In this document: positions 2,643-24,300 of the stretch, piece after piece
How positions within the stretch are numbered: the first letter of the stretch is position 1
Layout: the number at the start of each line of letters is the position of its first letter
Assembly: GCA_964429285.1 (NCBI GenBank)
Contig: CAYSBO010000004.1
Span: 1-39,721 of the forward strand
Source of the DNA: an uncultured Dehalococcoidales bacterium
GTDB taxonomy: Bacteria > Chloroflexota > Dehalococcoidia > GIF9 > AB-539-J10
Length of the DNA: 39,721 nucleotides
Reading direction: 5' to 3'
The notes under the pieces: generated by a model
Databases searched by the model: none
What the model was told of the DNA's origin: nothing
Seen by the model: the letters and a program-made list of their open reading frames with translations, nothing else
Translations under genes and position numbers: made by a program

Positions 2643-3146
2643 ATGGTTACAGAGGAACAAGTTGGCCAGGTAACAACTGAAATCTTAGGCTCCTATAGAA
2701 AAGATAGGAAAAACTTACTCCCCTTATTGCAGGAAGTCCAGACAAAGCTGGGGTATCTCCCCAAGGAAGCGATGAAAGGGATTGCCAGCTTCCTGGAGAT
2801 GCCGGAAGTCGAGGTCTGGGGGGTTGCCACCTTCTACAACCAGTTTCGCTTTGCCCCGTTAGGAAAATACCATATTGTGGTCTGTATGGGGACTGCCTGC
2901 CACCTAGCGGGAGGTAAGCTCATTATGGATGCCCTGGAGCGCGAGTTAGATATCAAAGTAGGCGAGACCACCGCGGATGGCTTCTTCAGCATGGAAAGAG
3001 TAGCCTGTATTGGATGCTGCATGCTGGCTCCCGTCATAGTAATAAAGGACAAAATCTATCCTAAGATGACGCCCTTCAAGGTGGAAGAAGTCTTGATACC
3101 GTATAAGCACGAAGCCGAAGGCGAGGGCGAAGATGAGGGGAGTTGA
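2643..3146 (+). CDS. NuoE/HydC/HoxE-like thioredoxin-fold [2Fe-2S] subunit (copy 1)
   Basis: 167 aa. The Cys pattern CMGTACHLAGG ... CIGCCMLAP is typical of NuoE-type 2Fe-2S proteins. The protein has an acidic C-terminal tail. It precedes a NuoF-like gene and has a paralog at 18882-19394. Confidence 0.85.
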   Translation: MVTEEQVGQVTTEILGSYRKDRKNLLPLLQEVQTKLGYLPKEAMKGIASFLEMPEVEVWGVATFYNQFRFAPLGKYHIVVCMGTACHLAGGKLIMDALERELDIKVGETTADGFFSMERVACIGCCMLAPVIVIKDKIYPKMTPFKVEEVLIPYKHEAEGEGEDEGS

Positions 3147-3182
3147 GGGAGGGCCCGCCCCCTTTTCCATTTTGTGTTTGAC

Positions 3183-6780: not shown

Positions 6781-6784
6781 ATCA

Positions 6785-9475: not shown

Positions 9476-9560
9476 ATGTCAATGTGCGTGAGAGAGGCAG
9501 TCTTAGATGGACACCCATAAGCCACACGTGTCAAATAAACAAATCATCTAGGAGGCAAAA

Positions 9561-10292
9561 ATGAATGCACAAGTCCGAAAACCTTTTGAGGAAGTTCTAG
9601 GATACCTTGAAGGTAGAAAGAAGATATTCCTTATGGGTTGTGGGGGGTGCGCTACAATCTTTCATACGGGTGGCATAAGGGAAGTAGATGAAATGGCAGA
9701 GAAACTAACGAAAGAAGGGAAGGAGATAGTAGGTAAAATCGGATTGCCTTTTGCGGTATTCGCCTGCTACCTCCCTATGTCCTCCATGTTTCTGAAGGAA
9801 CACAGGGACGAGATAGAGCAGTGTGATGCCATCTTAATGCAGAGTTGTGGGGACGGTGCGCAAGCAGTGCGTGGATATCTGGAGGAGGAAATGGGCATTG
9901 TAAAGCCCATATATCCATCAAACAATGCTCTCGGGTTTTCAAGCGGAGGACCAAGCACGTTCAAGGAGGAATGCCAGGCCTGCGGGGAATGTGAGCTTGG
10001 GCGAACTGCTGGGATTTGTCCGCTGGTACAATGTCCCAAAGGGTTGTTGAACGGTCCCTGTGGAGGGACAACTACGGATGGAAAATGTGAAGTAGAACCT
10101 ACCCGAGATTGTGCTTGGGTTATGATATACAGAAGATTGCAGGCACTTGGGGAACTAGGCGACCTGTCGACAATACAGGAGCCGCATGATTGGAGCAAAG
10201 CGGTGAGGCCACGCAGTCTGGAAGTTGAAGCCATCGACCTACTACAGGAGCTGAAGGGAACAAAGAAGGTATTAGAGGCACTAGGCGTGTAG
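9561..10292 (+). CDS. metV: MetV-like protein, copy 2 (paralog of 8825-9475)
   Basis: 243 aa. It has the same architecture: N-terminal F(L/M)xGCxGCA domain, then CQACGECELGRTAGICPLVQCPKGLLNGPCGGTTTDGKCEV..DCAW. AGGAGG lies upstream of the ATG. Confidence 0.75.
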   Translation: MNAQVRKPFEEVLGYLEGRKKIFLMGCGGCATIFHTGGIREVDEMAEKLTKEGKEIVGKIGLPFAVFACYLPMSSMFLKEHRDEIEQCDAILMQSCGDGAQAVRGYLEEEMGIVKPIYPSNNALGFSSGGPSTFKEECQACGECELGRTAGICPLVQCPKGLLNGPCGGTTTDGKCEVEPTRDCAWVMIYRRLQALGELGDLSTIQEPHDWSKAVRPRSLEVEAIDLLQELKGTKKVLEALGV

Positions 10293-10317
10293 CAAATAGC
10301 AAGACCAGGAGGAACAC

Positions 10318-11247
10318 ATGAAAACGAAAGGCAATCTGGAGCGGGTGCTAGAGGCAGGACAATTTGCAGTCACAGGCGAACTAGGTCCACCACAGAGTGC
10401 TGACCCGGAGGTAATAAGGAGAAAGGCGAGAATCCTCAAGGGTAATATTGACGCTGCCAATGTCACCGATGGGCAGACCGCAGTGGTGCGGATGGCGTCA
10501 TGGGCAGCTTGCCTCATAGCCAAGGATGAAGGGCTGGATCCTATCGTGCAAATGACCTGCCGTGACCGCAATCGCATTGCTCTTCAGATGGACGTGCTAG
10601 GCATAGCAGCACTGGGCATGAGTAATATGCTGTGTCTGACTGGCGACCACCAGAAGTTCGGGAATCACCCTATGGCCAAAGGCGTCTATGACCTTGATTC
10701 TATTCAGTTTGTTAAGATGGTGAAGGATATGCGGGACGAGAGAAAGTTTCAGTGTGGTGAAGAGATGGAAGTTGGGCCGCGTCTCTTCATCGGGGCTGCT
10801 GCCAATCCCTTTGCCGACCCTGCTGAGTTCAGGGCGGTGCGTCTGGGCAAGAAAGTGGCAGCGGGCGTAGATTTCATCCAGACCCAGCTTGTTTATAATG
10901 TGGATAAATTTGCGGAATGGATGAAAAAGGTACGCGACCAAGGATTACATGAGAGGGTCAAGATATTGGCCGGTGTCGGCCCCATAAAGTCGGTTGGTGC
11001 TGCCAAGTATATGAAAACTAGAGTTCCTGGGATGGATGTGCCTGACGGCGTCGTTGCGCGGCTTCAAGGAGTACCTAAGGAGGAGGTACCTAGGGAAGGT
11101 ATCAAGCTTTGCGTTGACATTATTGAGCAGGTGCGCGAAATTGAGGGGGTGACTGGCATCCACGTCATGGCTATTGAGTGGGAGGAAGCTGTGCCTGAGA
11201 TACTAAAAGCGGCTGGTCTTCTGCCGCGCCCTAGGTTTGGCACATAA
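10318..11247 (+). CDS. metF: 5,10-methylenetetrahydrofolate reductase (MetF, acetogen/anaerobe type)
   Basis: 309 aa. FAVTGELGPP, ANVTDGQTA, MTCRDRN and CLTGDH are typical of MetF TIM-barrel flavoproteins. AGGAGG lies upstream. It sits in a Wood-Ljungdahl context. Confidence 0.9.
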   Translation: MKTKGNLERVLEAGQFAVTGELGPPQSADPEVIRRKARILKGNIDAANVTDGQTAVVRMASWAACLIAKDEGLDPIVQMTCRDRNRIALQMDVLGIAALGMSNMLCLTGDHQKFGNHPMAKGVYDLDSIQFVKMVKDMRDERKFQCGEEMEVGPRLFIGAAANPFADPAEFRAVRLGKKVAAGVDFIQTQLVYNVDKFAEWMKKVRDQGLHERVKILAGVGPIKSVGAAKYMKTRVPGMDVPDGVVARLQGVPKEEVPREGIKLCVDIIEQVREIEGVTGIHVMAIEWEEAVPEILKAAGLLPRPRFGT

Positions 11248-11894
11248 TGAAGGAGCATAGTTCTTCGTCAGCTAGTCCGTGGGAACGGAGTTTTGACCTC
11301 TCCTATAAACTTGCTCGTGAGCAATTAGTCAGAATCAATGACATGGAGGAACAGTGTCGCAAAAGCGGAGCCAGATACCTGGCACCTAACGAGGTAGTTC
11401 TGGATTATCTCAGCCAGCCGTACCATATTCTGCTTCCCGATGCCAAGATTGTGTCGGAAGGTGAGGGCGTGGAAGTTCCATTGAAAGACAAAATCCTGAT
11501 ATTACACTATTTTACTTCGGCGAAAGGGACACCGGCTAGTGGCATATTGATTACCTATAAACAAGTGCCCGGTGGTGTCAGCTATTTCTCGGCGTTTTAC
11601 AAGAGGACGATAATGCCTTTGGTGAAACACTTCGGCACGAAGCCTGAGTTGCTGAAAGTTATATCGGCGAAGTTCGGTGGCTACGAGACAGACCGTGGAG
11701 ATGAATCTGTGACGGTCAACGCCTTCCCTCATGTGCCTATAACGTTAGTGCTCTGGAAAGGCGATGACGAGGTGGCTCCCAATGGGACCATTCTGTTCGA
11801 TGCTAACGTTTCGGATTATCTTTCCACCGAGGATGTGGCTGTCCTTAGCGAAACTATCACCTGGAAGCTCGTCAAGAGTATTCCACCTGCCTAA
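11247..11894 (+). CDS. Conserved protein of unknown function, DUF3786-like (family often found in Wood-Ljungdahl clusters)
   Basis: 215 aa. I recognised the pattern by eye (LDYLSQPYHILLP, VNAFPHVPITLVLWKGDDEV..ILFDANVSDYLSTEDV). The start codon shares a base with the metF stop (TAATG), which suggests translational coupling. The family assignment is from memory only. Confidence 0.5.
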   Translation: MKEHSSSSASPWERSFDLSYKLAREQLVRINDMEEQCRKSGARYLAPNEVVLDYLSQPYHILLPDAKIVSEGEGVEVPLKDKILILHYFTSAKGTPASGILITYKQVPGGVSYFSAFYKRTIMPLVKHFGTKPELLKVISAKFGGYETDRGDESVTVNAFPHVPITLVLWKGDDEVAPNGTILFDANVSDYLSTEDVAVLSETITWKLVKSIPPA

Positions 11895-12117
11895 GGCCAA
11901 CAATTGCATTATTATCTCTTAACGGGGACCAGTTACTCTCAAAATGTCTGGTTGTGCTAAGGGCCGTATCTATGATATAGTCCAACCCTTGGAGTTGCTC
12001 TCTGGAACTTGATTGACCTGATGTTTTGGAGCCAACTATCTCTAGTGCCAGATTCTGTCGGTTTGCCTACCCGGATCAAGGTGGCATAACTATCGTTGTT
12101 CAAGGAAGGAACGGACA

Positions 12118-15100
12118 ATGGCTGAAGACGACACAATCACAATAAGCATGGACGGCAGGGACGCACAGGCCAGGCAGGGACAGACAATACTGGAAGCTGC
12201 CAGAAGCACAGGAATCTATATTCCCAGCCTGTGCTACTATCCCGGCCTTAAACCTCTACCCCAGGTAATCCCTGACGAAGCTTGTCAGCTTTGTGTAGTG
12301 GAAGCAAATGGTAAGCTTGTCCTCTCCTGTACCACTCCCATCTCTGACAAAATGGTGGTCAAGACAAACACGCCAAGGGTTAGAGAGGTACAGCAGAAGA
12401 ATCTACTTGCCATTCTGGCTAGACAACCTGCGGATGTCTGCTCGGGGAGGGATGATTGTGAACTCCAGCAAGCCATCGACCATATTGGTTTAGAGCAGCT
12501 ACCTGTCCATGTTCCCAGGTCTTTAGCCCCTTCAGAGGATAATCCCTTCTTTGCCCGCGATTCCAGTTTCTGCATTCTATGCAATCGGTGCCTTCGGGTG
12601 TGTGATGAGATAAGGGGACTTGGTGTAATTGAGACTGCCTTTCCTTGCCAGGTAGCTTGTCCTGCCGGCATAGATGTTCCTCGCTATATTCGTCTTGTTG
12701 CAAGGGGCAAACCGAGCGCAGCCCTGGCAGTAATAAGAGAAAAAGTCCCTTTCCCTGCCGTATTGGGTAGGGTATGCGCTGCGCCATGCCAGGAGGAATG
12801 CCGACGTGGCCGTGACGTAGATAAGGCTTTACACATAAGGATGCTTAAGCGTTTCGCCGCTGATAAAGGTGATGATAGCTGGAAGCATCAAGCCGAGTTT
12901 CTTCCAGCGACCGGGAAGAGCGTAGCAATAGTGGGGGCGGGCCCGGCTGGGCTCACCTGTGCTTACTATCTGGCCAAGCTGGGACACAAAGTAACCTTGT
13001 TGGAAGCTCTCTCGGAGCCCGGTGGAATGATGAGAGTAGGAATCCCTGAATATCGCCTCCCGCGGAACATACTCCGCGACGAAATTCGAGAAATCGAGGG
13101 TGTAGGCGTGGAAATCAAATTGAACACCCGAATTGAATCGCTGGATTCCCTTTTTGAACATGGATACCAGGCCATATTCCTTGCTATAGGTGCCCACGAG
13201 GAGATGGCTCTGAATATTGAAGGGGAGGATTTGCCCGGGGTAATTGGTTGTGTGGAATTCTTACGACGGTTCAACCTTGGAGAGAGGATGGAGATAGGAG
13301 ACAGAGTAGGAGTGATTGGTGGGGGGAACGTTGCCATTGATTCTGCCCGTGCCGCCTTGCGGCTAGGTGCCAAAACGGTAGCCATTTTCTACCGCAGGAC
13401 AAAGAACGAGATGCCGGCTCAAGCGGAAGAGGTAGACCAGGCTTTGGAGGAAGGAATCGAGGTGATCTTCCTGGTCGCCCCTTCAAGAATTCGGAAGCAA
13501 AACAGTGACTTAGAATTGGAGCTGGTGCGCATGGAACTAGGGGAGCCAGATCCTAGTGGGAGACGCCGTCCCATCCCCATCGAAGGGAGTGAGTTTGTTG
13601 CCGGACTCGATACTTTGATTGCTGCCATCGGCGAACGACCTGATGTCCCAGCAGAGTTTCAGGTTCAGTTGGGACGAGGAAACGTATTGCAGGTCAACCA
13701 AGACCTCAGCACTAGTCGAGACGGCGTTTTTGCTGGTGGCGACTGCGTGACCGGGCCGGGCTTGGTTATCGATGCTATTGCGGCAGGAAGAAGGGCGGCC
13801 CAGTCTATAGATCGCTACCTGGGAGGCAACGGAGATATCACAGAGCACCTTGTGCCTGCTGAAGAAGGAATAACCTGGTCGAAAGATGTTACCCAAGGGG
13901 AGAGGCTGGCCAAGGTATCCTACGTTCCGCCTGAAGCGCGGATAAAGGGTCTCGCCGAGGTGGAGTACGGCTTGAACTGGGAGATGGCGATTGCCGAGGC
14001 TCAACGTTGCCTTCAGTGTCATGTTATCGCACCAGTGGAAGGGCGAACGCTTCGCGAGGCTGGCTGCAAGTTCTGCGGTGCCTGTGTTGATTCCTGTCCT
14101 ACGGGCGCTCTCACCGATGTGGCTACACGAGGAGTTGCCAAGCCCGACCGCACGATTGCCACGATTTGCCCGTATTGTGGTGTTGGCTGTCAACTGAAAT
14201 TGGAGGTCAAGGATGAGAAGATAATAGCGTCTATTCCAGATCCGAATGGCCTAGCTAACCGTGGGCAGGCATGTGTCAAAGGCCGTTTTGGCATCGCGGA
14301 GTTCGTTCACCATTCTGAGAGATTGACCACCCCGCTGATAAGGAAGAACGGCGAGTTCAAAGAAGCATCCTGGGACCAGGCACTGGAGTTAGTGGCAGAG
14401 AGACTGAGAAGCTACAAAAGCGACGAAATCGGGTTCATCACCTCGGCCAAGTGCACAAATGAAGAGAACTATGTAATGCAGAAATTGGCCCGGGCGGTAT
14501 TGGGCACCAACAACGTTGACCACTGTGCGCGTCTGTGTCATGCCCCTACTGTGGCTGGCCTGGTACAGAGCTTCGGCAGCGGGGCCATGACCAATTCCAT
14601 TAACGAAATCGGCGATGCAGCTTGCATTCTGGCTATTGGTACCAACACTACGGAAGACCATCCTGTGATTGCACTTGAAATGAAAAGGGCAGTGAACAAT
14701 GGAGGAAAGCTAATAGTGGCTAACCCCCGAGAAATTGAGCTCTGTCGCTTCGCCAGCCTCTGGTTGCAGCATAGACCTGGCACAGATGTGGCTCTCCTCA
14801 TGGGGATGATGCGGGTCATAGTAGATGAGGGATTATTGGACTCGGGGTTTATCAAGGAGAGATGTGAAGACTTCGAGGCTTTCAAGGAATCACTAAAGGA
14901 CTTTGATCTTGATTTTGTTGAGAGGGTCACTAACGTACCCCGTGACAAGATAGCGGAAGGTGCTCGTATGTTTGCCAGCAATAGTCCTGCCAGCATCCTG
15001 TATTCCATGGGGATTACGCAACATTCTCACGGCACGGACAATGTCCTGGCTACCGCCAACCTGGCCATGCTAACTGGAAACATGGGCAAGCGATCAACGG

Positions 15101-16215
15101 GGGTTAATCCACTGAGGGGCCAGAACAACGTGCAGGGCGCGTGCGATATGGGTGCCTTGCCTAATGTCTACCCCGGCTATCAGGCAGTGAGCAACCCAGA
15201 TATCAGAGAGAAGTTCGAAGCTGCCTGGGGGTGTTCATTGCCCCCGTCTTTCAAAGACAAATTTGGAATCACCTATGGATCCCCGTTGCCGTCATCTCCA
15301 GGGCTGACCCTGGTTGAAATGCTTGAAGCTGCGTACCGCAAAGAGATCAAAGCGTTATATCTGGTTGGTGAGAATCCAGCCTTAAGCGACCCTGATAGCC
15401 AGCATGTCCAGGAAGCGCTGAGTCGTCTTGATTTCCTGGTGGTTCAGGATATATTCCTTTCTGAGACGGCGAAGCTTGCGCATGTCGTGCTGCCAGCAGC
15501 AAGTTTTGCCGAAAAAGATGGCACCTTCACTAACACTGACCGCAGGGTGCAACGAGTAAGAAAGGTCATCGAGCCCATCGGCAATTCAAAGCCTGATTGG
15601 TGGATCGTTTGTCAGGTGGCTCAAAGACTAGAGGCGAAGGGCTTTGACTTCGGCCATCCATCTGAGATAATGGAAGAAATCCGGAATCTCACTCCCAGCT
15701 ATGCTGGGATTAGTTACCAAAGACTGGAGAATGGCGGACTCCAGTGGCCTTGCCCCTTAGATGATCATCCAGGCACGCCGATACTGCATACAAATGTTTT
15801 CGTGAGGGGGAAGGGGAGATTCGTTCCTCTAAAATACATTCCTCCGGGCGAAATGCCGGATGAAGAGTATCCTCTCGTTCTAACCACAGGGCGCAGTTTG
15901 TATCATTTCCACACTGGTACGATGACCCGGAAGGTAGCCGGACTCAATACTATGGAGCCTGAAGGCGTGTTGGAAATCAGCCCCCAGGATGCTTCGCACC
16001 TTGGCATAGCTGAAGGTGACAAGGTCGAAATCAGCTCCCGACGCGGTGCACTAGTCACCAAAGCCAGAGTAACCGAGGAATTGCCACCCGGGCTGGTGTT
16101 TATGGCCTTCCATTTCGCAGAAAGTGCGGCTAATATCCTCACCAACCCCAAACTCGACCCTGTGTCCAAGATTCCTGAGCTCAAAGTGTCGGCGGTTAGG
16201 GTGAAGAAAGTATGA
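12118..16215 (+). CDS. fdhA: Fusion protein: NuoG-like [2Fe-2S]/[4Fe-4S] N-terminus + GltD/NfnB-like FAD/NAD(P)H oxidoreductase module + molybdo/tungstopterin formate dehydrogenase alpha subunit (Cys type)
   Basis: It is a single uninterrupted 1365-codon ORF. The domains, in order:
- 2Fe-2S: SLCYY...CQLCVVE...SC.
- A CILCNRCLRVC motif.
- GltD-type CPAGIDVPRYI...GRVCAAPCQEECRRG.
- Rossmann motifs VAIVGAGPAGL and VGVIGGGNVAIDSAR, and the flavin motif GVFAGGDCVTGP.
- A ferredoxin motif CKFCGACVDSCPTGAL.
- MopB 4Fe-4S ICPYCGVGC.
- Active-site DHCARLCHAP, with Cys codon TGT at 14536-14538.
- RGQNNVQGACD. Confidence 0.85.
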   Translation: MAEDDTITISMDGRDAQARQGQTILEAARSTGIYIPSLCYYPGLKPLPQVIPDEACQLCVVEANGKLVLSCTTPISDKMVVKTNTPRVREVQQKNLLAILARQPADVCSGRDDCELQQAIDHIGLEQLPVHVPRSLAPSEDNPFFARDSSFCILCNRCLRVCDEIRGLGVIETAFPCQVACPAGIDVPRYIRLVARGKPSAALAVIREKVPFPAVLGRVCAAPCQEECRRGRDVDKALHIRMLKRFAADKGDDSWKHQAEFLPATGKSVAIVGAGPAGLTCAYYLAKLGHKVTLLEALSEPGGMMRVGIPEYRLPRNILRDEIREIEGVGVEIKLNTRIESLDSLFEHGYQAIFLAIGAHEEMALNIEGEDLPGVIGCVEFLRRFNLGERMEIGDRVGVIGGGNVAIDSARAALRLGAKTVAIFYRRTKNEMPAQAEEVDQALEEGIEVIFLVAPSRIRKQNSDLELELVRMELGEPDPSGRRRPIPIEGSEFVAGLDTLIAAIGERPDVPAEFQVQLGRGNVLQVNQDLSTSRDGVFAGGDCVTGPGLVIDAIAAGRRAAQSIDRYLGGNGDITEHLVPAEEGITWSKDVTQGERLAKVSYVPPEARIKGLAEVEYGLNWEMAIAEAQRCLQCHVIAPVEGRTLREAGCKFCGACVDSCPTGALTDVATRGVAKPDRTIATICPYCGVGCQLKLEVKDEKIIASIPDPNGLANRGQACVKGRFGIAEFVHHSERLTTPLIRKNGEFKEASWDQALELVAERLRSYKSDEIGFITSAKCTNEENYVMQKLARAVLGTNNVDHCARLCHAPTVAGLVQSFGSGAMTNSINEIGDAACILAIGTNTTEDHPVIALEMKRAVNNGGKLIVANPREIELCRFASLWLQHRPGTDVALLMGMMRVIVDEGLLDSGFIKERCEDFEAFKESLKDFDLDFVERVTNVPRDKIAEGARMFASNSPASILYSMGITQHSHGTDNVLATANLAMLTGNMGKRSTGVNPLRGQNNVQGACDMGALPNVYPGYQAVSNPDIREKFEAAWGCSLPPSFKDKFGITYGSPLPSSPGLTLVEMLEAAYRKEIKALYLVGENPALSDPDSQHVQEALSRLDFLVVQDIFLSETAKLAHVVLPAASFAEKDGTFTNTDRRVQRVRKVIEPIGNSKPDWWIVCQVAQRLEAKGFDFGHPSEIMEEIRNLTPSYAGISYQRLENGGLQWPCPLDDHPGTPILHTNVFVRGKGRFVPLKYIPPGEMPDEEYPLVLTTGRSLYHFHTGTMTRKVAGLNTMEPEGVLEISPQDASHLGIAEGDKVEISSRRGALVTKARVTEELPPGLVFMAFHFAESAANILTNPKLDPVSKIPELKVSAVRVKKV

Positions 16216-16288
16216 GCACGTTGCCAGTAATGAGACGAGGCTCGGCAGTGGTACAAGCGCGGGAGTAGGCAGAAGCGGCGCTACCTGG

Positions 16289-18881: not shown

Positions 18882-19394
18882 ATGGTGAATCCTACAACAG
18901 CGCAAGACACTCAGGTGCTCTCAGAGGACAAAGAGAAGGCAAATGAGAAGCGCCTGGATGAGATTCTATCGACCTATCAGGGTGAGAGAGAGGAGCTTAT
19001 TCCTATCCTGCAACAGGTCCAGCAGGCTTTTGGTTATCTGCCAGAGGCAGTGATGAAGAAGATAGCCAAATTCCTTCGGTTGCCGGAAAGCACCGTCTTT
19101 GGGGTGGGGACATTCTATGCCCAGTTCAAACTCGTCCCTTCAGGACGGAATATCATCAGGGTTTGTCGGGGTACTGCCTGTCATGTGCGCGGTAGTGGAC
19201 AAATCCTCGGCGAAATAGAGAAACAGTTGGGCATTACTGCCGGTGAGACTACACCGGATCTGGAATACTCGTTAGAGACGATAGCCTGCTTTGGTTCTTG
19301 TGCATTGGCACCAGTTGTGGTTACTAACAACAAGGTGTATGGGAGGATGGCGACGACAAAGGTGGAGGAGATATTGAAAAAGGAGACGCAGTGA
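18882..19394 (+). CDS. NuoE/HydC-like [2Fe-2S] subunit (copy 2)
   Basis: 170 aa. It has CRGTACHVRGS ... CFGSCALAP. The stop overlaps the next gene's GTG start. Confidence 0.87.
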   Translation: MVNPTTAQDTQVLSEDKEKANEKRLDEILSTYQGEREELIPILQQVQQAFGYLPEAVMKKIAKFLRLPESTVFGVGTFYAQFKLVPSGRNIIRVCRGTACHVRGSGQILGEIEKQLGITAGETTPDLEYSLETIACFGSCALAPVVVTNNKVYGRMATTKVEEILKKETQ

Positions 19395-21304
19395 ATTTCG
19401 AAGAAATCAGAAGTCAAGCTATACGGCAATGGAACGCCATGCAGCAGAGCGAAAACGTCCGTATTCTAATCGGTATGGGTACTTGCGGGCGAGCAGCTGG
19501 TGCCGAGGATATACTCGAAGTTCTTAACCAAGAGTTGAACCAGGAGAATATTCGAGCTGATATTCTTCCAGTCGGATGTATTGGTCTTTGTTATGCTGAG
19601 CCCTTGATCGAAGTAATCAAACCGGGTATGCCTAGTGTCTTTTATGGCAACTTGACCCCGGAGACAATACCCGAGATAGTCAAGGACTACCTGGTTGACG
19701 GCAATCCTCGTCCTGACCTAGCCCTGGGCATTCGCGGCGAAGGGGAACTGGTGGGTATTCCCAATCTCTTTGACCTGCCTGTGCTCAAGCCTCAAGTGCG
19801 CATCTCCTTGCGCAATTGTGGAAATATCGACCCTGAGAATATGGACCATTATGTTGCTAATGGTGGATATGAAGGTCTGGCCAGGGCATTGAGAATGAAA
19901 CCCCAGGAAGTGATAGACGAGATAAAGAAATCGGGGCTGAGAGGTCGTGGTGGGGCCGGGTTTCCCACCGGGGTTAAATGGCAGTTCTGCCACGATGCAC
20001 CCGGTGATCTAAAATATGTGATATGTAATGCTGATGAGGGTGATCCCGGGGCGTTCATGGATCGAGCGCTTCTGGAAGGGGATCCGCATGCTGTGATGGA
20101 AGGAATACTCATTGGGGCTTATGCTATCGGTGCGACCGAAGGCTACATCTATATCCGAGCCGAATACCCGTTGGCCATCCAGAGGCTACGTGCTGCTATT
20201 GAACAAATGGAACAATATGGCTTGATAGGTGAAGATATTATGGGTTCGGGCTTTGGCTTCCATATCAAAATAAAGGAAGGAGCTGGGGCTTTCGTATGTG
20301 GAGAGGAGACAGCTTTGCTGGCTTCTATCGAAGGTGGGCGTGGGATGCCCCGCTCGCGACCTCCGTTTCCTGCCCAGTCCGGCCTGTGGGGAAAACCAAC
20401 AAACATCAATAACGTGGAGACTTGGAGCAATGTCTCAGCTATTCTTGCTAAGGGTGCCGACTGGTATGCTGGCTTTGGCACTGAGAAGAGCAAGGGCACC
20501 AAGAACTTTTCCCTGGCAGGCAAAGTTGTTCGCACTGGGCTCATAGAGGTCCCAATGGGAATCAGCTTGAGGGAGATTGTGTATGATATAGGTGGGGGAA
20601 TTCCGGAAGGCAAAAGCCTGAAGGCAGTTCAAACTGGGGGACCATCAGGTGGTTTCATCCCCGAGAGCCTGATCGACCTGCCTGTTGACTACGAGTCCCT
20701 TGCCCAGGCAGGATCTATTATGGGCTCGGGTGGGATGGTGGTCGTTGATGAGGATACCTGCATGGTCGATATTACCAAGTTCTTCCTCACCTTCACCCAA
20801 GCTGAATCTTGTGGTAAGTGCGTACCCTGTCGTTGGGGCACCAAGCAGATGCTGGATATCCTGGTGGACATCACTGAAGGGAGAGGAAGGCCAGGAGATA
20901 TCGAGCTACTGCAAGAATTGGCGGAAGCGGTCAAAGATGATTCGTTGTGTGGTCTGGGCCAGACAGCTCCTAATCCAGTGCTTAGCAGCATTCGCTACTT
21001 TCGCGAGGAATATGAGAAGCACATATCGGAGAAATACTGCTCTGCGATGCAATGCCAAGCTCTAATATCTTACTATATACTTCCTGAGAAATGTCAGGGA
21101 TGTATGATTTGCGCTAGGAATTGCCCGGTCCAGGCTATTGAAGGTAACAAGCGAATGGTGCATGTTATCGACCAAGATAAGTGCATCAGGTGTGGGACCT
21201 GCTTAGATGTCTGCCCGCCCAAGTTCAACGCAGTGGTTAAGGTCAGCGGCACAGAAGGATTGGATGTTCCTGAGAAGCCTGTCCCAGTAGCCGCCGAGCC
21301 CTAG
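19391..21304 (+). CDS. NuoF/HydB-like FMN/NADH-binding Fe-S flavoprotein (copy 2) with canonical NADH-site motifs
   Basis: 637 aa with a GTG start. Motifs seen: GLRGRGGAGFPTGVKW, NADEGDPGAF, GAGAFVCGEETALL, RPPFPAQSGLWGKPT, NNVET, ESCGKCVPCR...SLCGLG, and C-terminal CQGCMICARNCP and CIRCGTCLDVCP. Confidence 0.9.
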   Translation: MNFEEIRSQAIRQWNAMQQSENVRILIGMGTCGRAAGAEDILEVLNQELNQENIRADILPVGCIGLCYAEPLIEVIKPGMPSVFYGNLTPETIPEIVKDYLVDGNPRPDLALGIRGEGELVGIPNLFDLPVLKPQVRISLRNCGNIDPENMDHYVANGGYEGLARALRMKPQEVIDEIKKSGLRGRGGAGFPTGVKWQFCHDAPGDLKYVICNADEGDPGAFMDRALLEGDPHAVMEGILIGAYAIGATEGYIYIRAEYPLAIQRLRAAIEQMEQYGLIGEDIMGSGFGFHIKIKEGAGAFVCGEETALLASIEGGRGMPRSRPPFPAQSGLWGKPTNINNVETWSNVSAILAKGADWYAGFGTEKSKGTKNFSLAGKVVRTGLIEVPMGISLREIVYDIGGGIPEGKSLKAVQTGGPSGGFIPESLIDLPVDYESLAQAGSIMGSGGMVVVDEDTCMVDITKFFLTFTQAESCGKCVPCRWGTKQMLDILVDITEGRGRPGDIELLQELAEAVKDDSLCGLGQTAPNPVLSSIRYFREEYEKHISEKYCSAMQCQALISYYILPEKCQGCMICARNCPVQAIEGNKRMVHVIDQDKCIRCGTCLDVCPPKFNAVVKVSGTEGLDVPEKPVPVAAEP

Positions 21305-21336
21305 GTATCGTATTAGCATGTAAGGAAGGTGCCAAG

Positions 21337-24300
21337 ATGTCTGTAACTGCTACAACCAAGATGGAAGAAAAGAGTACAACCACTATAAAGCTCACTATTA
21401 ACGGAGAGCAAGTTGAAGTAGAGAAGGGAGCTACCGTACTTGAAGCGGCACTTGGTGCCGGCATTTATATCCCGACACTGTGTTATGCCCCCGACCTTAA
21501 ACCTTATGGAGGTTGTCGCCTCTGTGTGGTTGAGATTGAAGGAATGCGGGGTCTGGTTAGTTCGTGTACTACGCCAGCAACAGACGGTATGGTGGTTCGC
21601 ACGGAAACAGAACGGGTCAATAGAGCACGTCGCATAACCATGGAGCTTATCATCGCCAATCACCATGGCGATTGTCTTACCTGTGCAAAAAACCAGAACT
21701 GTGAGCTGCTCAGGATTGCGCGATATTTGGGCATAGAACAGCCCGAAATTGACCGTTTGAGAAAAAGCACCGAAGTGCTTCCTATGGATGAGAGTCATCC
21801 GGCATTTCTCCGCGACCCAAACAAGTGCATTCTGTGTGGCCAGTGCGTACGTGCTTGCCATGAAATAGCTGTGGTCGGAGCCATTGACTTGGCTTTCCGA
21901 GGTAACTCAGCAAAAGTAGCCACCTTTGGTGATAAACCGATTGTTGAGTCCATCTGCAAGTCTTGTGGCGAATGTGTTGCCCGGTGTCCTACGGGAGCGT
22001 TGATCCCCAAATGGGAGAAACCACCTACCAAAGAGGTTCAAACCATTTGCCCCTACTGCGGAGTCGGTTGCTCTATCTATTTGGGTGTTCGTGACAACAA
22101 GATTGTTTCCGTGCGTGGGGATCCAGAGAGTCCGGCTAACAAGGGCAGTCTATGTGTCAAAGGACGCTGGGGATACGACTTCGTCGACCATCCCGAGAGG
22201 TTGACTACGCCACTGGTGCGAATCCCGGGCGTTGTCCGACAGGCAAGTCACAACGGAAAGGTGCAGGAAATCTTTCGCGAAGCCACCTGGGATGAGGCCC
22301 TTGAGCTGGTGGCAAACAAGCTAATTGAACTGAAGCAGAATTATGGAGCAGATAGTATTGCTGCCTTAAGTTCAGCCAAGTGCACAAATGAAGACAATTA
22401 CGTTATGCAAGAATTCGTTCGTGCTGTCATAGGAACCAACAATATTGACCATTGCGCCCGACTATGCCACGCCTCTACGGTGGTTGGAGGTATCGCCGCT
22501 TTTGGTCAAGGGGCGATGAGCAACTCTTATTCCGATTTTGAGAAGACCGAACTCTTCTTTGTCATCGGTTCTAATACTACGGAATGTCATCCCATTATTG
22601 GTGCAATGATCAAGAGGAGAGTCAAGTTCAACGGCGCTAAGCTTATTGTGGCTGATCCCCGCTCTACGGAACTTGGCGAATATGCCACTGCCAAGCTTGT
22701 TCACAAGCCGGGGACAGACGTTGCCCTCATCAATGGTCTGATGCACGTCATAATCAGGGACGGCCTTGAGAACAAGGAGTTCATCCAAGAACGCACTGAA
22801 GGTTTTGAGGATATGCGTCGGCTTGTGGAAAAGTTTACTCCTGAGGTAGTCGAGGCGATAACCGGGGTTCCAAAGGCTGATCTAGAGGCAGCTGCCCGCT
22901 TGTTCGGGGAGGCAAAAAGCGCCTGTATCCTCTATGGAATGGGGATAACCCAGCATACTACAGGCACAGACAATGTGAAAAGTGTGGCAAACCTGCTGCT
23001 GTTGACCGGGAATATAGGGAGGGAAGGCACGGGCTTTAGCCCCCTTCGGGGTCAGAACAACGTCCAGGGCGCTTGTGACCTGGGTGCATTACCTAATGTC
23101 TATCCCGGCTATCAAAAAGTTGATGATCCTGCTGTAAGAATGAAATTTGAAACTGCCTGGGACTGCAAATTGAGTAGCCAACCGGGGCTGACGGTTACCG
23201 AGATAGCCAATGCTATACTGAAGGAAGATATCAGAGGACTCTATGTTATGGGTGAGAACCCCATGCTAAGTGAACCTCACCTTGAACATACCCGGCATGC
23301 AATGGAAAAACTCGAGTTTCTGGTAGTTCAGGATATCTTTCTCTCCGAGACGGCCTGGTTAGCCGATGTGGTTCTGCCCGGTGCTGCGTTCGCAGAAAAG
23401 AACGGCACTTTCACCAATACTGAGAGGCGAGTTCAGAGAGTGAGGCAAGCGGTCGTGCCACCCGGGGAGGCGAAGCCTGACTGGGAGATCATCTGTGCTC
23501 TAGCAGACAAGATGGGGCATCCATTGCCTCATCAGAGCGCTGCCCAGATCATGGAAGAAATAGCCTCCCTGACTCCTATCTATGGCGGTATCCTTTTCGA
23601 CCGGCTAGACCAGGGTGGTCTGCAATGGCCCTGTCCTGATGCCTCGCACCCCGGAACTGTCTTCCTTTACCAGGACGGCTTCGCGCGGGGGCAAGGCAAA
23701 TTTCATGCCGTAGACCACATGCCACCGGCAGAAGCAATATCCAAAGGTTACCCGCTGGTGCTCACTACGGGGCGGGTGCTGGAGCACTGGCATACTGGCA
23801 CCATGAGTCGGCGCTCTAGTGTACTGAGTGAACTTAACCCTAATGGTGTAGTTGAGATGAGTCCCAGTGATGCGCTGAAGCTCGGGTTTATTGAGGGCGA
23901 TTCAATAGTACTTGCCTCAGAAAGAGGACGAGTGGAAGTGCCGTTACATATTACGGACGAATTGCCTCCTGGCGTTGTGTTCATGCCCTTTCACTGGCAC
24001 GAGGCAGCAGCAAATATCCTCACCAACGATGCTCTTGACCCGATCGCCAAGATTCCCGAGTTCAAAGTTGCGGCAGTTAACGCCGTGTTGGCGGTACTTG
24101 ATAGAGCTGCTCGTGATAATGCCTTTCTGGCTCGACTGGCGGAAAACCCTGCTGAGGCTCTGAAAGACTACGAACTGACAACGGAAGAAAAATCTGCCCT
24201 GATGAGCGGTGATATACGCAAGATAGAAGCATGGCTGGGTAAGCTAGATGAGCGCCTTAAGACCTGGCTTATGTTGCGGTTATCCCAGGAGAAATGGTAG
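21337..24300 (+). CDS. fdhA: Formate dehydrogenase alpha subunit (Cys type) with a NuoG-like N-terminal Fe-S domain and an extra C-terminal helical tail of about 73 aa
   Basis: 987 aa. The domains, in order:
- 2Fe-2S: TLCYAPDL..GGCRLCVVE..SSC.
- His-ligated cluster motif HHGDCLTCAKNQNC.
- CILCGQCVRAC and CKSCGECVARCP.
- MopB ICPYCGVGC.
- Active-site DHCARLCHAS, with Cys codon TGC at 22465-22467.
- RGQNNVQGACD.
The canonical end ...KIPEFKVAAV is followed by the tail. Confidence 0.9.
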   Translation: MSVTATTKMEEKSTTTIKLTINGEQVEVEKGATVLEAALGAGIYIPTLCYAPDLKPYGGCRLCVVEIEGMRGLVSSCTTPATDGMVVRTETERVNRARRITMELIIANHHGDCLTCAKNQNCELLRIARYLGIEQPEIDRLRKSTEVLPMDESHPAFLRDPNKCILCGQCVRACHEIAVVGAIDLAFRGNSAKVATFGDKPIVESICKSCGECVARCPTGALIPKWEKPPTKEVQTICPYCGVGCSIYLGVRDNKIVSVRGDPESPANKGSLCVKGRWGYDFVDHPERLTTPLVRIPGVVRQASHNGKVQEIFREATWDEALELVANKLIELKQNYGADSIAALSSAKCTNEDNYVMQEFVRAVIGTNNIDHCARLCHASTVVGGIAAFGQGAMSNSYSDFEKTELFFVIGSNTTECHPIIGAMIKRRVKFNGAKLIVADPRSTELGEYATAKLVHKPGTDVALINGLMHVIIRDGLENKEFIQERTEGFEDMRRLVEKFTPEVVEAITGVPKADLEAAARLFGEAKSACILYGMGITQHTTGTDNVKSVANLLLLTGNIGREGTGFSPLRGQNNVQGACDLGALPNVYPGYQKVDDPAVRMKFETAWDCKLSSQPGLTVTEIANAILKEDIRGLYVMGENPMLSEPHLEHTRHAMEKLEFLVVQDIFLSETAWLADVVLPGAAFAEKNGTFTNTERRVQRVRQAVVPPGEAKPDWEIICALADKMGHPLPHQSAAQIMEEIASLTPIYGGILFDRLDQGGLQWPCPDASHPGTVFLYQDGFARGQGKFHAVDHMPPAEAISKGYPLVLTTGRVLEHWHTGTMSRRSSVLSELNPNGVVEMSPSDALKLGFIEGDSIVLASERGRVEVPLHITDELPPGVVFMPFHWHEAAANILTNDALDPIAKIPEFKVAAVNAVLAVLDRAARDNAFLARLAENPAEALKDYELTTEEKSALMSGDIRKIEAWLGKLDERLKTWLMLRLSQEKW

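What the first reader, a model, noticed from the sequence alone, without database searches (positions are those of the whole stretch)
12118..16215. 1365-aa single-polypeptide formate dehydrogenase with a GltD/NfnB-like NAD(P)H-flavoprotein module inserted inside its NuoG-like ferredoxin domain
Seen, by comparison with the paralog FdhA-2:
- In FdhA-2 the two ferredoxin motifs CILCGQCVRAC and CKSCGECVARCPTGAL are about 30 residues apart.
- In this ORF the first motif (CILCNRCLRVC) is followed at about nt 12634-13821 by a complete GltD/NfnB/SudA-type unit.
- That unit has CPAGIDVPRYI...GRVCAAPCQEECRRG, two Rossmann motifs (VAIVGAGPAGL and VGVIGGGNVAIDSAR) and GVFAGGDCVTGP...AAGRRAAQSIDRYL.
- Only after it come CKFCGACVDSCPTGAL and the molybdopterin domains.
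- The His-ligated cluster motif present in FdhA-2 (HHGDCLTCAKNQNC) is degenerate here (QPADVCSGRDDC).
- The active site is the Cys type (CARLCHAP).

Established knowledge: GltD/NfnB-like proteins usually partner molybdopterin or Fe-S enzymes as separate subunits, for example the SfrAB-type and NADP-dependent FDH beta subunits. NfnB also harbours the bifurcating FAD of NfnAB.

Inference: this would be a self-contained NAD(P)H:CO2 oxidoreductase for the first Wood-Ljungdahl step. It may have a different nucleotide specificity from the NuoEF-linked FdhA-2. A domain insertion, rather than an end-to-end fusion, is unusual.
Basis: partly seen in the sequence, partly recalled or inferred. Interest (0 to 1): 0.75.

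Follow-up and report, generated by a model that had tools for sequence, protein, structure and literature searches.

The report
One-chain NADPH-linked formate dehydrogenase
This gene encodes a formate dehydrogenase that carries its own NADPH-reading flavoprotein module spliced into its iron-sulfur domain; it is real and common in uncultured Dehalococcoidia, it is a new splice variant of a design already known from the StnC/NfnA proteins (whose formate dehydrogenase part is dead), and nobody seems to have tested such an enzyme.

Summary
ORF 12118-16215 (+) encodes 1365 aa. The order is a [2Fe-2S] domain, a first CxxCxxCxxxC motif, a complete GltD/NfnL-type FAD/NADPH module, a second CxxCxxCxxxCP motif, then a full formate dehydrogenase (FDH) catalytic domain with Cys807-His808-Arg1000. 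It is not an assembly artefact. More than 120 protein clusters and 28 Dehalococcoidia/Chloroflexota MAG loci carry the same full-length gene, and every cofactor ligand is invariant.

The insertion as such is not unprecedented. The solved StnC/NfnA proteins (8OH5, 9BOV, 9N5U) carry the same circularly permuted NADPH module inside a NuoG/FDH-like chain. There it sits about 50 residues earlier and the FDH domain is dead. Fusions with a live FDH site and the StnC-type splice also exist, unstudied, in cultured Vibrio, Deltaproteobacteria MAGs and a eukaryote.

The splice between the two ferredoxin motifs ("type D") is the new part. I found it only in Dehalococcoidia (Cys) and two selenocysteine relatives.

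Best reading: a stand-alone NADPH:CO2/formate oxidoreductase of the Wood-Ljungdahl cluster. At this chromosomal position it replaces the NuoE-NuoF(-GltD)+FdhA system of sister lineages.

Main rival: it docks onto the upstream NuoE/NuoF pair as a Stn-like complex with a live FDH.

Verdict: new variant of a known kind, moderate interest.

The parts
12118..16215 (+). Whole gene: 1365-aa fused FDH / NADPH-flavoprotein ('type D' splice)
12130..12417 (+). N-terminal NuoG-type [2Fe-2S] domain (Fer2_4). Ligands are Cys39, 56, 59 and 71.
   Evidence: Pfam. Cys56, 59 and 71 are invariant in 120/120 listed proteins; Cys39 is present in 119 with one alignment gap. AF2 pLDDT is 65-93 across most of the domain.
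12424..12459 (+). Remnant of the His-ligated [4Fe-4S] motif (QPADVC108SGRDDC114). The His and the first Cys are lost. The last two Cys are kept.
   Evidence: Compared with FdhA-2 HHGDCLTCAKNQNC. Q103 is present in 119/120, C108 in 120/120, C114 in 119/120. No PF10588 hit here, unlike FdhA-2.
12571..12603 (+). Ferredoxin motif 1, C152-x2-C155-x2-C158-x3-C162, lying before the flavoprotein module
   Evidence: Invariant in 120/120. Aligns to the post-GltD motif of 9BOV_A (aa 589-629) and 8OH5_C (aa 600-631).
12643..14025 (+). Circularly permuted GltD/NfnL-type module. It holds two [4Fe-4S] sites (C177, C181, C631, C634; C220, C224, C228, Lys244), FAD and NADPH sites. It starts at PCxxxCP and ends at RCLQC.
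   Evidence: Pfam Fer4_20 and Pyr_redox_2. HMMER alignments to 9N5U_A, 9BOV_A, 8OH5_C, 4YLF_B and 5JCA_L show the permutation. Foldseek gives rmsd 1.9 A to 5JCA_L. Ligands invariant.
12922..12954 (+). FAD-binding Rossmann motif VAIVGAGPAGL
13306..13398 (+). NADPH-binding Rossmann motif VGVIGGGNVAIDSAR (GxGxxA) plus Y425-R426-R427
   Evidence: Identical YRR(T/S) in the NADPH-oxidising StnC and NfnA. GxGxxA was proposed as NADP(H)-specific in PMC7483475.
14065..14100 (+). Ferredoxin motif 2, C650-x2-C653-x2-C656-x3-C660-P, lying after the module
14152..14298 (+). Molybdopterin-enzyme [4Fe-4S] domain (C684, C687, C691, C719)
14320..16188 (+). bis-MGD catalytic domains (Molybdopterin, Molydop_binding). 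Active-site Cys807-His808 lie at nt 14536-14541 and Arg1000 at nt 15115-15117.
   Evidence: Full-length, high-scoring HMMER alignments (E 1e-219 to 1e-224) to F420-FDH 9T1S_L and HDCR FdhF 7QV7_S, with the same HCARL(C/U)H(A/S) motif. Triad invariant.
2643..5087 (+). NuoE-like and BfuB-type NuoF-like pair in the same gene run. It is a possible but unproven partner.
   Evidence: Present in 11 of 12 type D loci with at least 9 kb upstream. Also kept in sister lineages whose FdhA has its own NuoEF.
10318..11894 (+). MetF and DUF3786 genes directly upstream (conserved neighbours)
   Evidence: DUF3786 is directly upstream in 26/28 loci and MetF in 21/22.
18882..24300 (+). Second FDH system, NuoE - NuoF (BfuB type) - FdhA-2 (987 aa, all N-terminal clusters intact). 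This is the comparison paralog.
   Evidence: The FDH domains of the two paralogs are 56.6% identical.

Best explanation
The protein is a single-polypeptide, Cys-type Mo/W formate dehydrogenase (CO2 reductase) that carries its own NADPH port.

Shown from sequence:
- An NfnL/GltD-type module (FAD, an NADPH Rossmann fold, two [4Fe-4S] sites) is circularly permuted. It is spliced into the loop between the two CxxCxxCxxxC motifs of the NuoG-like N-terminal domain of an FdhA.
- The His-ligated cluster of that domain has been lost.

Inferred electron path:
- NADPH gives a hydride to FAD.
- Electrons then pass through the proximal cluster (C220, C224, C228, K244) and the distal cluster (C177, C181, C631, C634).
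- They continue through the two ferredoxin-type clusters (motifs 1 and 2) and the [4Fe-4S] of the molybdopterin domain.
- They end at bis-MGD-Mo/W(Cys807), where CO2 and formate interconvert.
- The linkers between the module and motifs 1 and 2 are only 14 and 15 residues long. This argues that the distal cluster sits next to the ferredoxin clusters.

Inferred role: it supplies or consumes formate for the methyl branch of the Wood-Ljungdahl pathway with NADPH, without a dedicated NuoE/NuoF. It is a one-gene replacement for the NuoE-NuoF(-GltD)+FdhA system found at the same position in sister Dehalococcoidia. The co-resident NuoEF-FdhA-2 would handle NADH/ferredoxin-linked formate chemistry.
For: 1. 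The domain set is complete and passes curated cutoffs.
2. All Fe-S ligands, both dinucleotide motifs, YRR and the C-H-R triad are invariant across the 120 listed proteins.
3. The FDH domain gives full-length, high-scoring alignments to proven FDHs (9T1S_L, E 4e-224; 7QV7_S, E 1e-219) and shares HCARLCHAPTV with the Cys-type HDCR FdhF.
4. The module's closest solved relatives are the NADPH-oxidising NfnA and StnC (E 1e-107 to 1e-122). It shares their Lys ligand and YRR. Foldseek gives rmsd 1.9 A to NfnL 5JCA_L.
5. Fusions of the same kind stand alone elsewhere:
   - Type D with Sec in a Desulfobacteraceae MAG. The gene begins its own unit after an oppositely oriented ammonium transporter gene, and there is no NuoEF within 10 kb upstream.
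   - Type S with an intact triad in Vibrio and in MAG L007, with no NuoEF neighbours.
6. At the same slot (MetF-DUF3786--HK-RR), sister lineages have NuoE-NuoF-FdhA or NuoE-[NuoF-GltD]-FdhA. Their catalytic domain is 71-81% identical to ours.
7. Two of those sisters (L037, L046) also keep the upstream NuoE1/NuoF1 pair, so that pair has another job.
8. NADPH-dependent CO2 reduction is thermodynamically feasible and is used by Moorella thermoacetica, through separate SfrB-like and FdhF subunits (PMC13040438).
Against: - There are no biochemical data for any member, and no paper describing such an enzyme was found.
- The [2Fe-2S] domain is strictly conserved but has no role in the linear path. 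In NuoG-type proteins it faces NuoF.
- NuoE1/NuoF1 (BfuB type) lie in the same gene run in 11/12 type D loci with enough upstream sequence.
- AlphaFold could not place motifs 1 and 2: pLDDT is 32-36 for aa 131-170 and 40-59 for aa 631-670. The cluster-to-cluster geometry is therefore not shown.
- Mo versus W, and the physiological direction, are unknown.
Confidence: 0.6

Rival explanations
1. It is the large (BfuA/StnC-like) subunit of a three-subunit Bfu complex with the NuoE-like and BfuB-type NuoF-like proteins encoded at 2643-5087. That would be a Stn-type NADPH/NADH/ferredoxin transhydrogenase whose normally vestigial FDH branch is alive. CO2 reduction could then draw on NADPH, NADH and reduced ferredoxin in one bifurcating machine.
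For: - The closest solved architectures are StnC and NfnA, which bind StnAB/NfnBC.
- NuoF1 matches BfuB subunits over its full length, including the terminal Fe-S domains (7T2R_B, 9BOV_B, 9N5U_B, 8OH5_B).
- NuoE1/NuoF1 lie in the same co-oriented run in 11/12 loci. They persist where the NiFe hydrogenase is absent (L003, L008, L027).
- No other NuoG-like protein is encoded in that run.
- The [2Fe-2S] domain is conserved.
- In Sporomusa ovata, stnABC also lies just downstream of metVF (PMC7483475).
Against: - Nine ORFs and 7 kb separate NuoF1 from this gene.
- Sister genomes keep NuoE1/NuoF1 although their FdhA has its own adjacent NuoEF (L037, L046).
- Type D and type S live-FDH fusions occur without any NuoEF nearby.
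- The junction cluster that wires GltD towards StnB in StnC (split H-x3-C ... C-x-C-x5-C motif) is missing here.
- The N-terminal 175 aa are only about 40% identical to NuoEF-partnered sister FdhAs, while the catalytic domain is about 71-81% identical.
Confidence: 0.2
2. It is a multi-port hub. The FDH takes electrons mainly from another partner in the cluster, through the [2Fe-2S] domain. Candidates are the group-3-like NiFe hydrogenase at 5917-8344 or a ferredoxin. The NADPH module would be a secondary or overflow port, making an H2- or ferredoxin-dependent CO2 reductase with an NADPH side door.
For: - A NiFe hydrogenase lies in the same run in 8/12 loci.
- A type S live-FDH fusion in a Poribacteria MAG (L053) is directly followed by NiFe small and large subunit genes and metV.
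- The [2Fe-2S] domain is conserved but unexplained.
Against: - The hydrogenase is absent from several type D loci (L003/L022, L008, L027).
- No docking subunit is evident.
- The NADPH module is under strict conservation, with every ligand and motif invariant. That argues for a main role.
Confidence: 0.1
3. The molybdopterin domain does not act on formate/CO2. It could be another Mo-enzyme chemistry such as assimilatory nitrate reduction, or a non-catalytic remnant as in StnC. The protein would then be only an NADPH oxidoreductase.
For: - StnC was annotated as an FDH but has no formate activity (PMC7483475).
- NasC-type models also hit, at 539 bits, but far below their cutoff of 1100.
Against: - The TIGR01591 equivalog score is above its trusted cutoff.
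- The Cys-His and Arg triad is intact and invariant, while StnC-like proteins have lost it.
- The domain aligns over its full length, with very high scores, to proven FDHs.
- Selenocysteine sits at the same position in relatives L029 and L050.
- The neighbours are Wood-Ljungdahl genes, and a FocA gene lies nearby in L004.
Confidence: 0.04

Closest known systems
StnC / NfnA, the large subunit of the Bfu-type NADH-dependent ferredoxin:NADP+ oxidoreductase (S. ovata StnABC 8OH5/8OH9; C. saccharolyticus NfnABC 9BOV; T. sibiricus NfnABC 9N5U)
   Same: - One chain holds an N-terminal [2Fe-2S] domain, the same circularly permuted NfnL/GltD module (starts PCxxxCP, ends RCLxC; Lys ligand; YRR NADPH motif), two ferredoxin motifs and a molybdopterin-type domain.
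- These are the best sequence and fold matches in the PDB.
   Different: - In StnC/NfnA the module is spliced directly after the [2Fe-2S] domain, inside the His-cluster motif. Both ferredoxin motifs follow it. Here it lies between the two motifs, and the His-type site is lost.
- Their FDH-like domain lacks the pterin site and is inactive (PMC10482914, PMC11829005, PMC7483475). Here the triad and a full FdhA score are present.
- Their genes are adjacent to stnAB/nfnBC. Here no NuoEF is adjacent.
Unstudied 'type S' FDH-GltD fusions with an intact active site (e.g. Vibrio splendidus/crassostreae WP_182797120.1-type, 1409 aa; Deltaproteobacteria and Gammaproteobacteria MAGs; MDQ7795099.1; a Stygiella incarcerata transcript)
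   Same: - A single polypeptide carries the [2Fe-2S] domain, a GltD module, two ferredoxin motifs and an FDH domain with the Cys-His-Arg triad.
- They are solitary genes in the loci read, which suggests self-contained NADPH-FDHs.
   Different: - They have the StnC-type splice point with the split H-x3-C / C-x-C-x5-C junction motif.
- Their modules are only 38-48% identical to ours. Our module is closer (52-61%) to GltD modules of non-FDH fusions.
- They are annotation-only, with no characterisation found.
NADP-dependent formate dehydrogenase of Moorella thermoacetica (genes sfrB2, sfrA2, fdhF3) and Geobacter SfrAB
   Same: - NADPH is coupled to a Mo/W-pterin FDH through a GltD/SfrB-type iron-sulfur flavoprotein.
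- It works in CO2 reduction for the Wood-Ljungdahl pathway (PMC13040438; PMC7483475).
   Different: - The subunits are separate there, and that FDH is a tungsten-selenium protein (Yamamoto et al. 1983, title cited in PMC13040438). Here there is one chain and Cys.
- A two-subunit analogue exists in relatives L050/L051: a 749-aa beta subunit with Fer2_4-m1-m2-GltD plus a Sec FdhA.
Type 1 Fdh-Bfu / NuoEF-linked FdhA (window FdhA-2; R. capsulatus FdsABG 6TGA)
   Same: - NuoG-like N-terminus followed by an FdhA catalytic domain.
- The catalytic domain is 56.6% identical to FdhA-2 and 71-81% identical to sister-lineage FdhA at the same locus.
   Different: - Those have all N-terminal clusters, including the His-ligated one, have no flavoprotein insert, and are encoded right after NuoE-NuoF.

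Membership tests
Metal-dependent formate dehydrogenase catalytic subunit (FdhA/FdhF, TIGR01591) | Score above the curated equivalog cutoff over the whole catalytic region | tested here: met
   887.3 bits against a cutoff of 666.25, aa 682-1362 on profile positions 1-672
Metal-dependent formate dehydrogenase catalytic subunit (FdhA/FdhF, TIGR01591) | Active-site Cys/Sec-His pair and conserved Arg; four-Cys [4Fe-4S] of the Molybdop_Fe4S4 domain | tested here: met
   C807-H808, R1000 and C684/687/691/719 are invariant in 120/120. The site aligns with Sec in 9T1S_L and Cys in 7QV7_S.
Metal-dependent formate dehydrogenase catalytic subunit (FdhA/FdhF, TIGR01591) | Formate oxidation / CO2 reduction activity with a bound bis-MGD Mo or W cofactor | not testable with these tools
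   Needs an enzyme assay and metal analysis. A mobA-like gene is nearby (24338-24946).
GltD / NfnL (NfnB) / SudA-type iron-sulfur flavoprotein module | Fer4_20 plus Pyr_redox_2 domains, two dinucleotide motifs, ligands for two [4Fe-4S] clusters | tested here: met
   Foldseek TM (target-normalised) is 0.79 and rmsd 1.9 A to 5JCA_L.
GltD / NfnL (NfnB) / SudA-type iron-sulfur flavoprotein module | Canonical order, with the RCLxC segment at the N-terminus immediately before PCxxxCP | tested here: not met
   The RCLQC segment (aa 593-636) follows the flavin domains. It aligns to residues 11-42 of 4YLF_B and 18-47 of 5JCA_L. The same permutation is seen in StnC/NfnA.
GltD / NfnL (NfnB) / SudA-type iron-sulfur flavoprotein module | NfnSL-type bifurcating FAD: a second, high-potential branch through an NfnS/NfnA subunit, and a Glu-ligated proximal cluster | tested here: not met
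   No NfnS-like domain or gene is present. The proximal cluster has Lys244, as in the non-bifurcating NfnA/StnC FAD site. The Arg equivalent to Pfu R201 is present (R313) but also occurs in StnC, so it is not diagnostic.
StnC / NfnA (BfuA subunit of Nfn-Bfu transhydrogenase) | GltD module spliced straight after the [2Fe-2S] domain, with the HxxxCxxxCxxxCP and CxxCxCxxxxC junction motifs | tested here: not met
   The module starts at aa 176, after motif 1. The junction motifs are absent: Q103 replaces His and V107 replaces Cys.
StnC / NfnA (BfuA subunit of Nfn-Bfu transhydrogenase) | Non-catalytic FDH-like domain (no pterin site, no formate activity) | tested here: not met
   The triad is intact and the TIGR01591 score is above cutoff. 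StnC-like representatives lack the triad.
StnC / NfnA (BfuA subunit of Nfn-Bfu transhydrogenase) | Encoded next to, and complexed with, NuoE-like and BfuB-type NuoF-like subunits | tested here: inconclusive
   A BfuB-type pair lies 7 kb upstream in the same run but is not adjacent. It is retained independently in sister lineages. Complex formation is not testable here.
Type 1 Fdh-Bfu (NuoE-NuoF-FdhA operon) | FdhA with a complete NuoG-type N-terminus (including the His-ligated cluster), directly downstream of NuoE-NuoF | tested here: not met
   There is no PF10588 hit and His is lost. The upstream neighbours are MetF and DUF3786. The description fits FdhA-2 instead.

The most novel reading that the evidence does not exclude
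These live FDH-GltD fusions would be surviving relatives of the ancestor from which the Stn/Nfn-Bfu transhydrogenases derived their dead-end FDH branch. In Dehalococcoidia the 1365-aa protein would dock onto the co-clustered BfuBC pair (NuoE1/NuoF1). The result would be a four-substrate machine that couples CO2/formate to NADPH, NADH and ferredoxin by flavin-based bifurcation. That is a type of Bfu enzyme not described in the literature I could search.
Probability: 0.13. Interest if true: 0.8.

Novelty: new variant of a known kind. Interest (0 to 1): 0.52.

Why it matters
- If the enzyme works alone, it would be a one-gene, NADPH-driven, metal-dependent CO2 reductase. The multi-subunit NAD(P)-linked FDHs now used for CO2-to-formate biocatalysis are much more complex, and this enzyme has Cys rather than Sec, so it is easier to express.
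- It gives a concrete candidate for the first step of the Wood-Ljungdahl pathway in abundant uncultured Dehalococcoidia.
- It supplies the live counterpart to the FDH-like domain that structural papers on StnC/NfnA call an evolutionary remnant.
- The same permuted NADPH module turns up at four places around one FDH scaffold: type S, type D, type U and fused to NuoF. That is a natural experiment in rewiring Fe-S chains.

Tried and rejected
- Assembly or frameshift artefact. Rejected: the 120 listed clusters cover the query at 100% (one at 96%) and come from four data sources, and 29 non-redundant loci carry the splice.
- AlphaFold2 on aa 1-760 with 42 close homologs gave pLDDT 43 and was unusable. 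A second run with 63 diverse sequences gave pLDDT 82.5. The two ferredoxin motifs and their linkers stayed at low confidence, so no wire geometry can be claimed. The tool gives no coordinates, so distances could not be measured.
- Derivation of type D from type S by moving a 70-aa segment. Considered because our C108-x5-C114 aligns with the post-GltD C-x5-C of type S. Not favoured: the divergent type D fragment P0122 keeps a near-complete contiguous His-type motif, and our module is closer to non-FDH GltD fusions than to type S.
- A clean recombination breakpoint against sister FdhA. Identity rises gradually from about 40% (aa 1-175) through 64-77% (aa 640-790) to 80-97%, with no sharp junction.
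- Riboswitch or other RNA upstream (for example Moco). No Rfam hit anywhere in the window.
- Promoter and terminator scans of 11500-16500 gave no more hits than shuffled sequence.
- Literature searches for a characterised fused NADPH-FDH found none. The Desulfobacterium and Pelobacter genome papers were irrelevant.

Full report
**1. What is in the sequence**

ORF 12118..16215 (+) is the longest ORF of the window, at 1365 aa.

Profile searches fix the architecture:
- Fer2_4, aa 5-85
- Fer4_20, aa 176-251
- Pyr_redox_2, aa 268-557
- a Fer4 motif, aa 650-666
- Molybdop_Fe4S4, aa 679-727
- Molybdopterin, aa 735-1169
- Molydop_binding, aa 1253-1357

The C-terminal 680 residues pass the curated equivalog cutoff for FDH alpha: TIGR01591 scores 887 bits against 666. 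They give full-length, high-scoring alignments to proven FDHs: the F420-dependent FdhA 9T1S_L (E 4e-224), and the Cys-type FdhF of the Thermoanaerobacter HDCR, 7QV7_S (E 1e-219). They share the HCARLCHAPTV active-site strand with the latter.

The cofactor inventory read from the sequence is:
- one [2Fe-2S] (C39, C56, C59, C71)
- two ferredoxin-type [4Fe-4S] (motif 1, C152/155/158/162; motif 2, C650/653/656/660)
- two [4Fe-4S] in the flavoprotein module (C177/181/631/634; C220/224/228 plus Lys244)
- one [4Fe-4S] in the molybdopterin domain (C684/687/691/719)
- FAD, an NADPH site (GxGxxA plus Y425-R426-R427), and bis-MGD with Cys807-His808 and Arg1000

The His-ligated cluster of NuoG-type proteins, intact in the paralog FdhA-2, is lost. 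His is replaced by Gln103 and the first Cys by Val107. C108 and C114 remain.

**2. It is real and under selection**

The 120 best-scoring clusters listed by the search (of 7977 hits below 1e-50) include the window's own protein. The other 119 come from JGI, ENA, NCBI and Logan assemblies. All but one cover the query at 100% (the exception covers 96%), at 75-86% identity. Where named, they are called "formate dehydrogenase subunit alpha" of Dehalococcoidia/Chloroflexota MAGs. In an alignment of the 120 listed proteins, every ligand and motif listed above is invariant.

A scan of species-representative genomes gave 29 non-redundant loci with the same splice. An assembly or frameshift artefact is excluded.

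**3. One refinement of the observation**

In canonical NfnB (4YLF_B) and NfnL (5JCA_L), the segment "...EVxLG...EAxRCLQC" comes first and is followed directly by PCxxxCP. Here the module begins with PC177xxxC181P. The RCLQC segment (aa 593-636) comes last, and HMMER aligns it to residues 11-42 of 4YLF_B and 18-47 of 5JCA_L. The chain thus enters and leaves the module at the same Fe-S site, as a true insertion requires. The module spans nt 12643-14025.

**4. The design is known; the splice point is not**

The best PDB matches to the N-terminal half are three solved chains:
- S. ovata StnC (8OH5_C, 1172 aa)
- C. saccharolyticus NfnA (9BOV_A, 1178 aa)
- T. sibiricus NfnA (9N5U_A)

A Foldseek search with an AlphaFold model gives the same three (E 1e-59 to 1e-67). 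It superposes the module on NfnL 5JCA_L at 1.9 A.

These published proteins are described as a GltD/NfnL domain inserted into a NuoG/FDH-like protein. Their FDH domain is catalytically inactive and its two clusters form a dead-end "evolution remnant" branch (PMC10482914; PMC11829005). StnC showed no formate activity (PMC7483475). They share the permutation, the Lys ligand of the FAD-proximal cluster and the YRR motif with our protein.

The order differs. In StnC/NfnA it is Fer2_4 - GltD (aa ~103-568) - motif 1 (~600-630) - motif 2 (~642-672) - FDH-like. In ours, motif 1 (aa 152-162) precedes the module and motif 2 follows it.

A search of 1.84 billion representative proteins, classified, shows three splice positions of the same module:
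- **Type S:** after Fer2_4, splitting the His motif into H-x3-C ... C-x-C-x5-C.
- **Type D:** ours, between the two ferredoxin motifs.
- **Type U:** after both motifs, in ~700-aa beta-type proteins.

A fourth arrangement fuses the module to the C-terminus of NuoF, giving 1026-1046 aa.

Type S proteins with an intact Cys-His-Arg triad exist and are unstudied:
- 1409 aa in cultured Vibrio splendidus, V. crassostreae and relatives (522 cluster members)
- 1362-1387 aa in Delta- and Gammaproteobacteria MAGs
- MDQ7795099.1
- a 1589-aa transcript of the eukaryote Stygiella

Type D was found in the Dehalococcoidia family and in two selenocysteine forms. P0122 was called as 825 aa because it stops just before the active site. 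L029, from a Desulfobacteraceae MAG, has TGA at codon 800 in HCARL*HAP.

**5. Where it came from**

The protein is a mosaic.
- Its catalytic domain is about 71-81% identical (80-97% in many 30-aa windows beyond aa 790) to the 890-915-aa FdhA that sister Dehalococcoidia encode at the same chromosomal position. It is 56.6% identical to the co-resident FdhA-2.
- Its first 175 residues are only about 40% identical to any normal FdhA.
- Its GltD module is closer to modules fused to unrelated enzymes (P0171, 61%) than to type S FDH or StnC modules (47-51%).

P0122 keeps a nearly complete, contiguous His-type motif. This argues that type D arose by its own insertion event, not by rearrangement of type S. 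I regard this as likely but not proven.

**6. Genomic context and what it says about partners**

The window run is co-oriented: CdhC - CdhD - NuoE1 - NuoF1 - CooC - NiFe small subunit - NiFe large subunit - HycI - MetV - MetV - MetF - DUF3786 - this gene. It is followed by a convergent histidine kinase and response regulator. Then comes a second system, NuoE - NuoF - FdhA-2, and mobA.

Across type D loci:
- DUF3786 is directly upstream in 26/28.
- MetF is upstream in 21/22.
- CdhD-NuoE1-NuoF1 is within 10 kb in 11/12.
- The hydrogenase is within 10 kb in 8/12.

Both NuoF proteins are full BfuB-type, with best matches 7T2R_B, 9BOV_B, 9N5U_B and 8OH5_B over the whole length. This raised the rival that the 1365-aa protein is the BfuA of NuoE1/NuoF1, a Stn complex with a live FDH.

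Three findings weigh against it:
1. Sister lineages place NuoE-NuoF-FdhA (L035, L037, L040, L046, L047) or NuoE-[NuoF-GltD]-FdhA (L034, L038) in the same slot. Of these, L035, L037, L040, L046 and L047 show MetF-DUF3786 directly upstream, and L034, L037, L040, L046 and L047 show HK-RR directly downstream. L037 and L046 still keep the upstream NuoE1/NuoF1, so that pair serves something else.
2. Type D in L029, and type S in Vibrio and L007, are solitary genes with unrelated neighbours.
3. The junction cluster that connects the module to the StnB-facing branch in type S is missing here.

The simplest reading is that one polypeptide replaced a NuoE/NuoF(-GltD)/FdhA system.

**7. Mechanism**

Shown: the parts and their conservation.

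Inferred:
- NADPH reduces FAD. The YRR and GxGxxA motifs are as in the NADPH-oxidising StnC/NfnA.
- Electrons pass the Lys-ligated proximal cluster, the distal cluster, the two ferredoxin-type clusters, the molybdopterin-domain cluster, and reach bis-MGD-Mo/W(Cys807).
- The linkers from motif 1 to C177 (14 residues) and from C634 to motif 2 (15 residues) are short. The distal cluster must therefore lie close to the ferredoxin clusters.

AlphaFold left exactly this region at low confidence: pLDDT 32-36 for aa 131-170 and 40-59 for aa 631-670. The wire is therefore not demonstrated.

NADPH-driven CO2 reduction is near equilibrium at cellular NADPH potential. It is used by Moorella thermoacetica with separate SfrB-like and FdhF subunits (PMC13040438). 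The enzyme could run either way. One relative has a FocA formate channel gene nearby.

NfnSL-type bifurcation at the FAD is unlikely. There is no second branch or NfnS-like partner, and the proximal cluster has the Lys of the non-bifurcating class.

Unexplained: why the [2Fe-2S] domain and the two leftover cysteines C108 and C114 are so strictly conserved.

**8. Novelty and verdict**

It overrated how unusual an inserted GltD module is.
- **Known:** the StnC/NfnA architecture with a dead FDH domain, and NADPH-FDHs with separate subunits.
- **In databases but unstudied:** live-FDH fusions, including in culturable Vibrio.
- **New here:**
  - the type D splice between the ferredoxin motifs, with loss of the His-type cluster;
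  - its fixed place at the end of the Dehalococcoidia Wood-Ljungdahl cluster;
  - the comparative evidence that it substitutes for a NuoEF-dependent FDH.

I found no paper describing or testing such an enzyme. I rate it a new variant of a known kind, interest about 0.5. There is a minority chance (about 0.13) of a much more interesting four-substrate Bfu complex.

Noticed in passing
L001 17277-20417; L034 7492-10572; also L012, L021, L038, L086 (relatives of the window): NuoF-GltD fusion proteins of 1026-1046 aa carry Complex1_51K, NADH_4Fe-4S, Fer4_20 and Pyr_redox_2. The GltD module takes the place of the C-terminal ferredoxin domain of BfuB. They are encoded directly upstream of an FdhA. 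The window's own NuoF-2 (19391-21304) is the unfused 637-aa form. This is another way of giving an FDH an NADPH port.
   Followed up: partly
L050 9968-14965 and L051 (MAGs labelled uncultured bacterium / Dehalococcoidaceae): A two-subunit version follows DUF3786. It is a 749-aa beta protein (Fer2_4, His-type motif, both ferredoxin motifs, then GltD at the end) plus an FdhA with in-frame TGA (selenocysteine) at the active site.
   Followed up: partly
L029 9992-13861 (Desulfobacteraceae MAG) and protein P0122: The same type D splice occurs outside Chloroflexota, with selenocysteine at the active site. Gene callers truncate these proteins at the TGA (799 and 825 aa).
   Followed up: yes
window 2643-5087 with 5084-8831 and 8825-11247: A BfuB-type NuoE/NuoF pair sits between the CODH/ACS genes and CooC, a NiFe hydrogenase (HoxH-like large subunit) and MetV/MetF. 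No NuoG-like subunit is encoded beside it. It persists in relatives that lack the hydrogenase. Its real partner (MetF? hydrogenase?) is unknown.
   Followed up: partly
window 33542-37843: [quoted passage not shown]
   Followed up: no
window 18557-18865: A 102-aa ORF is weakly similar to the Frankia-type ribosomal peptide family (PF14407, below cutoff). It is conserved at the same place in L001 and L004, between the response regulator and the next operon.
   Followed up: no
L004/L041 16797-18032: One relative has a FocA-type formate/nitrite channel gene where the window has NuoE-NuoF-FdhA-2. In that genome the fused enzyme is the only FDH in the cluster.
   Followed up: no
window 8825-9475 and 9561-10292: There are two tandem MetV-like genes (MTHFR C-terminal domain, PF12225) ahead of MetF. 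Several relatives have only one.
   Followed up: no
protein P0128 (EukProt, Stygiella incarcerata transcript): A 1589-aa type S FDH-GltD fusion with an intact Cys-His-Arg triad appears in the transcriptome of an anaerobic jakobid eukaryote. It could be lateral transfer or contamination.
   Followed up: no
L036 1933-2451: A short stand-alone gene is 54% identical to aa 1-156 of the fused protein ([2Fe-2S] domain plus motif 1 region). It lies right after DUF3786 and is followed by two NuoE-NuoF pairs and an FdhA. It may be an evolutionary intermediate or a remnant.
   Followed up: no
window 12424-12459 (aa 103-114): Two cysteines (C108, C114) of the otherwise destroyed His-ligated cluster motif are kept in 120/120 and 119/120 of the listed proteins. 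No replacement ligands could be identified, and H635 is not conserved. Their role is unexplained.
   Followed up: partly
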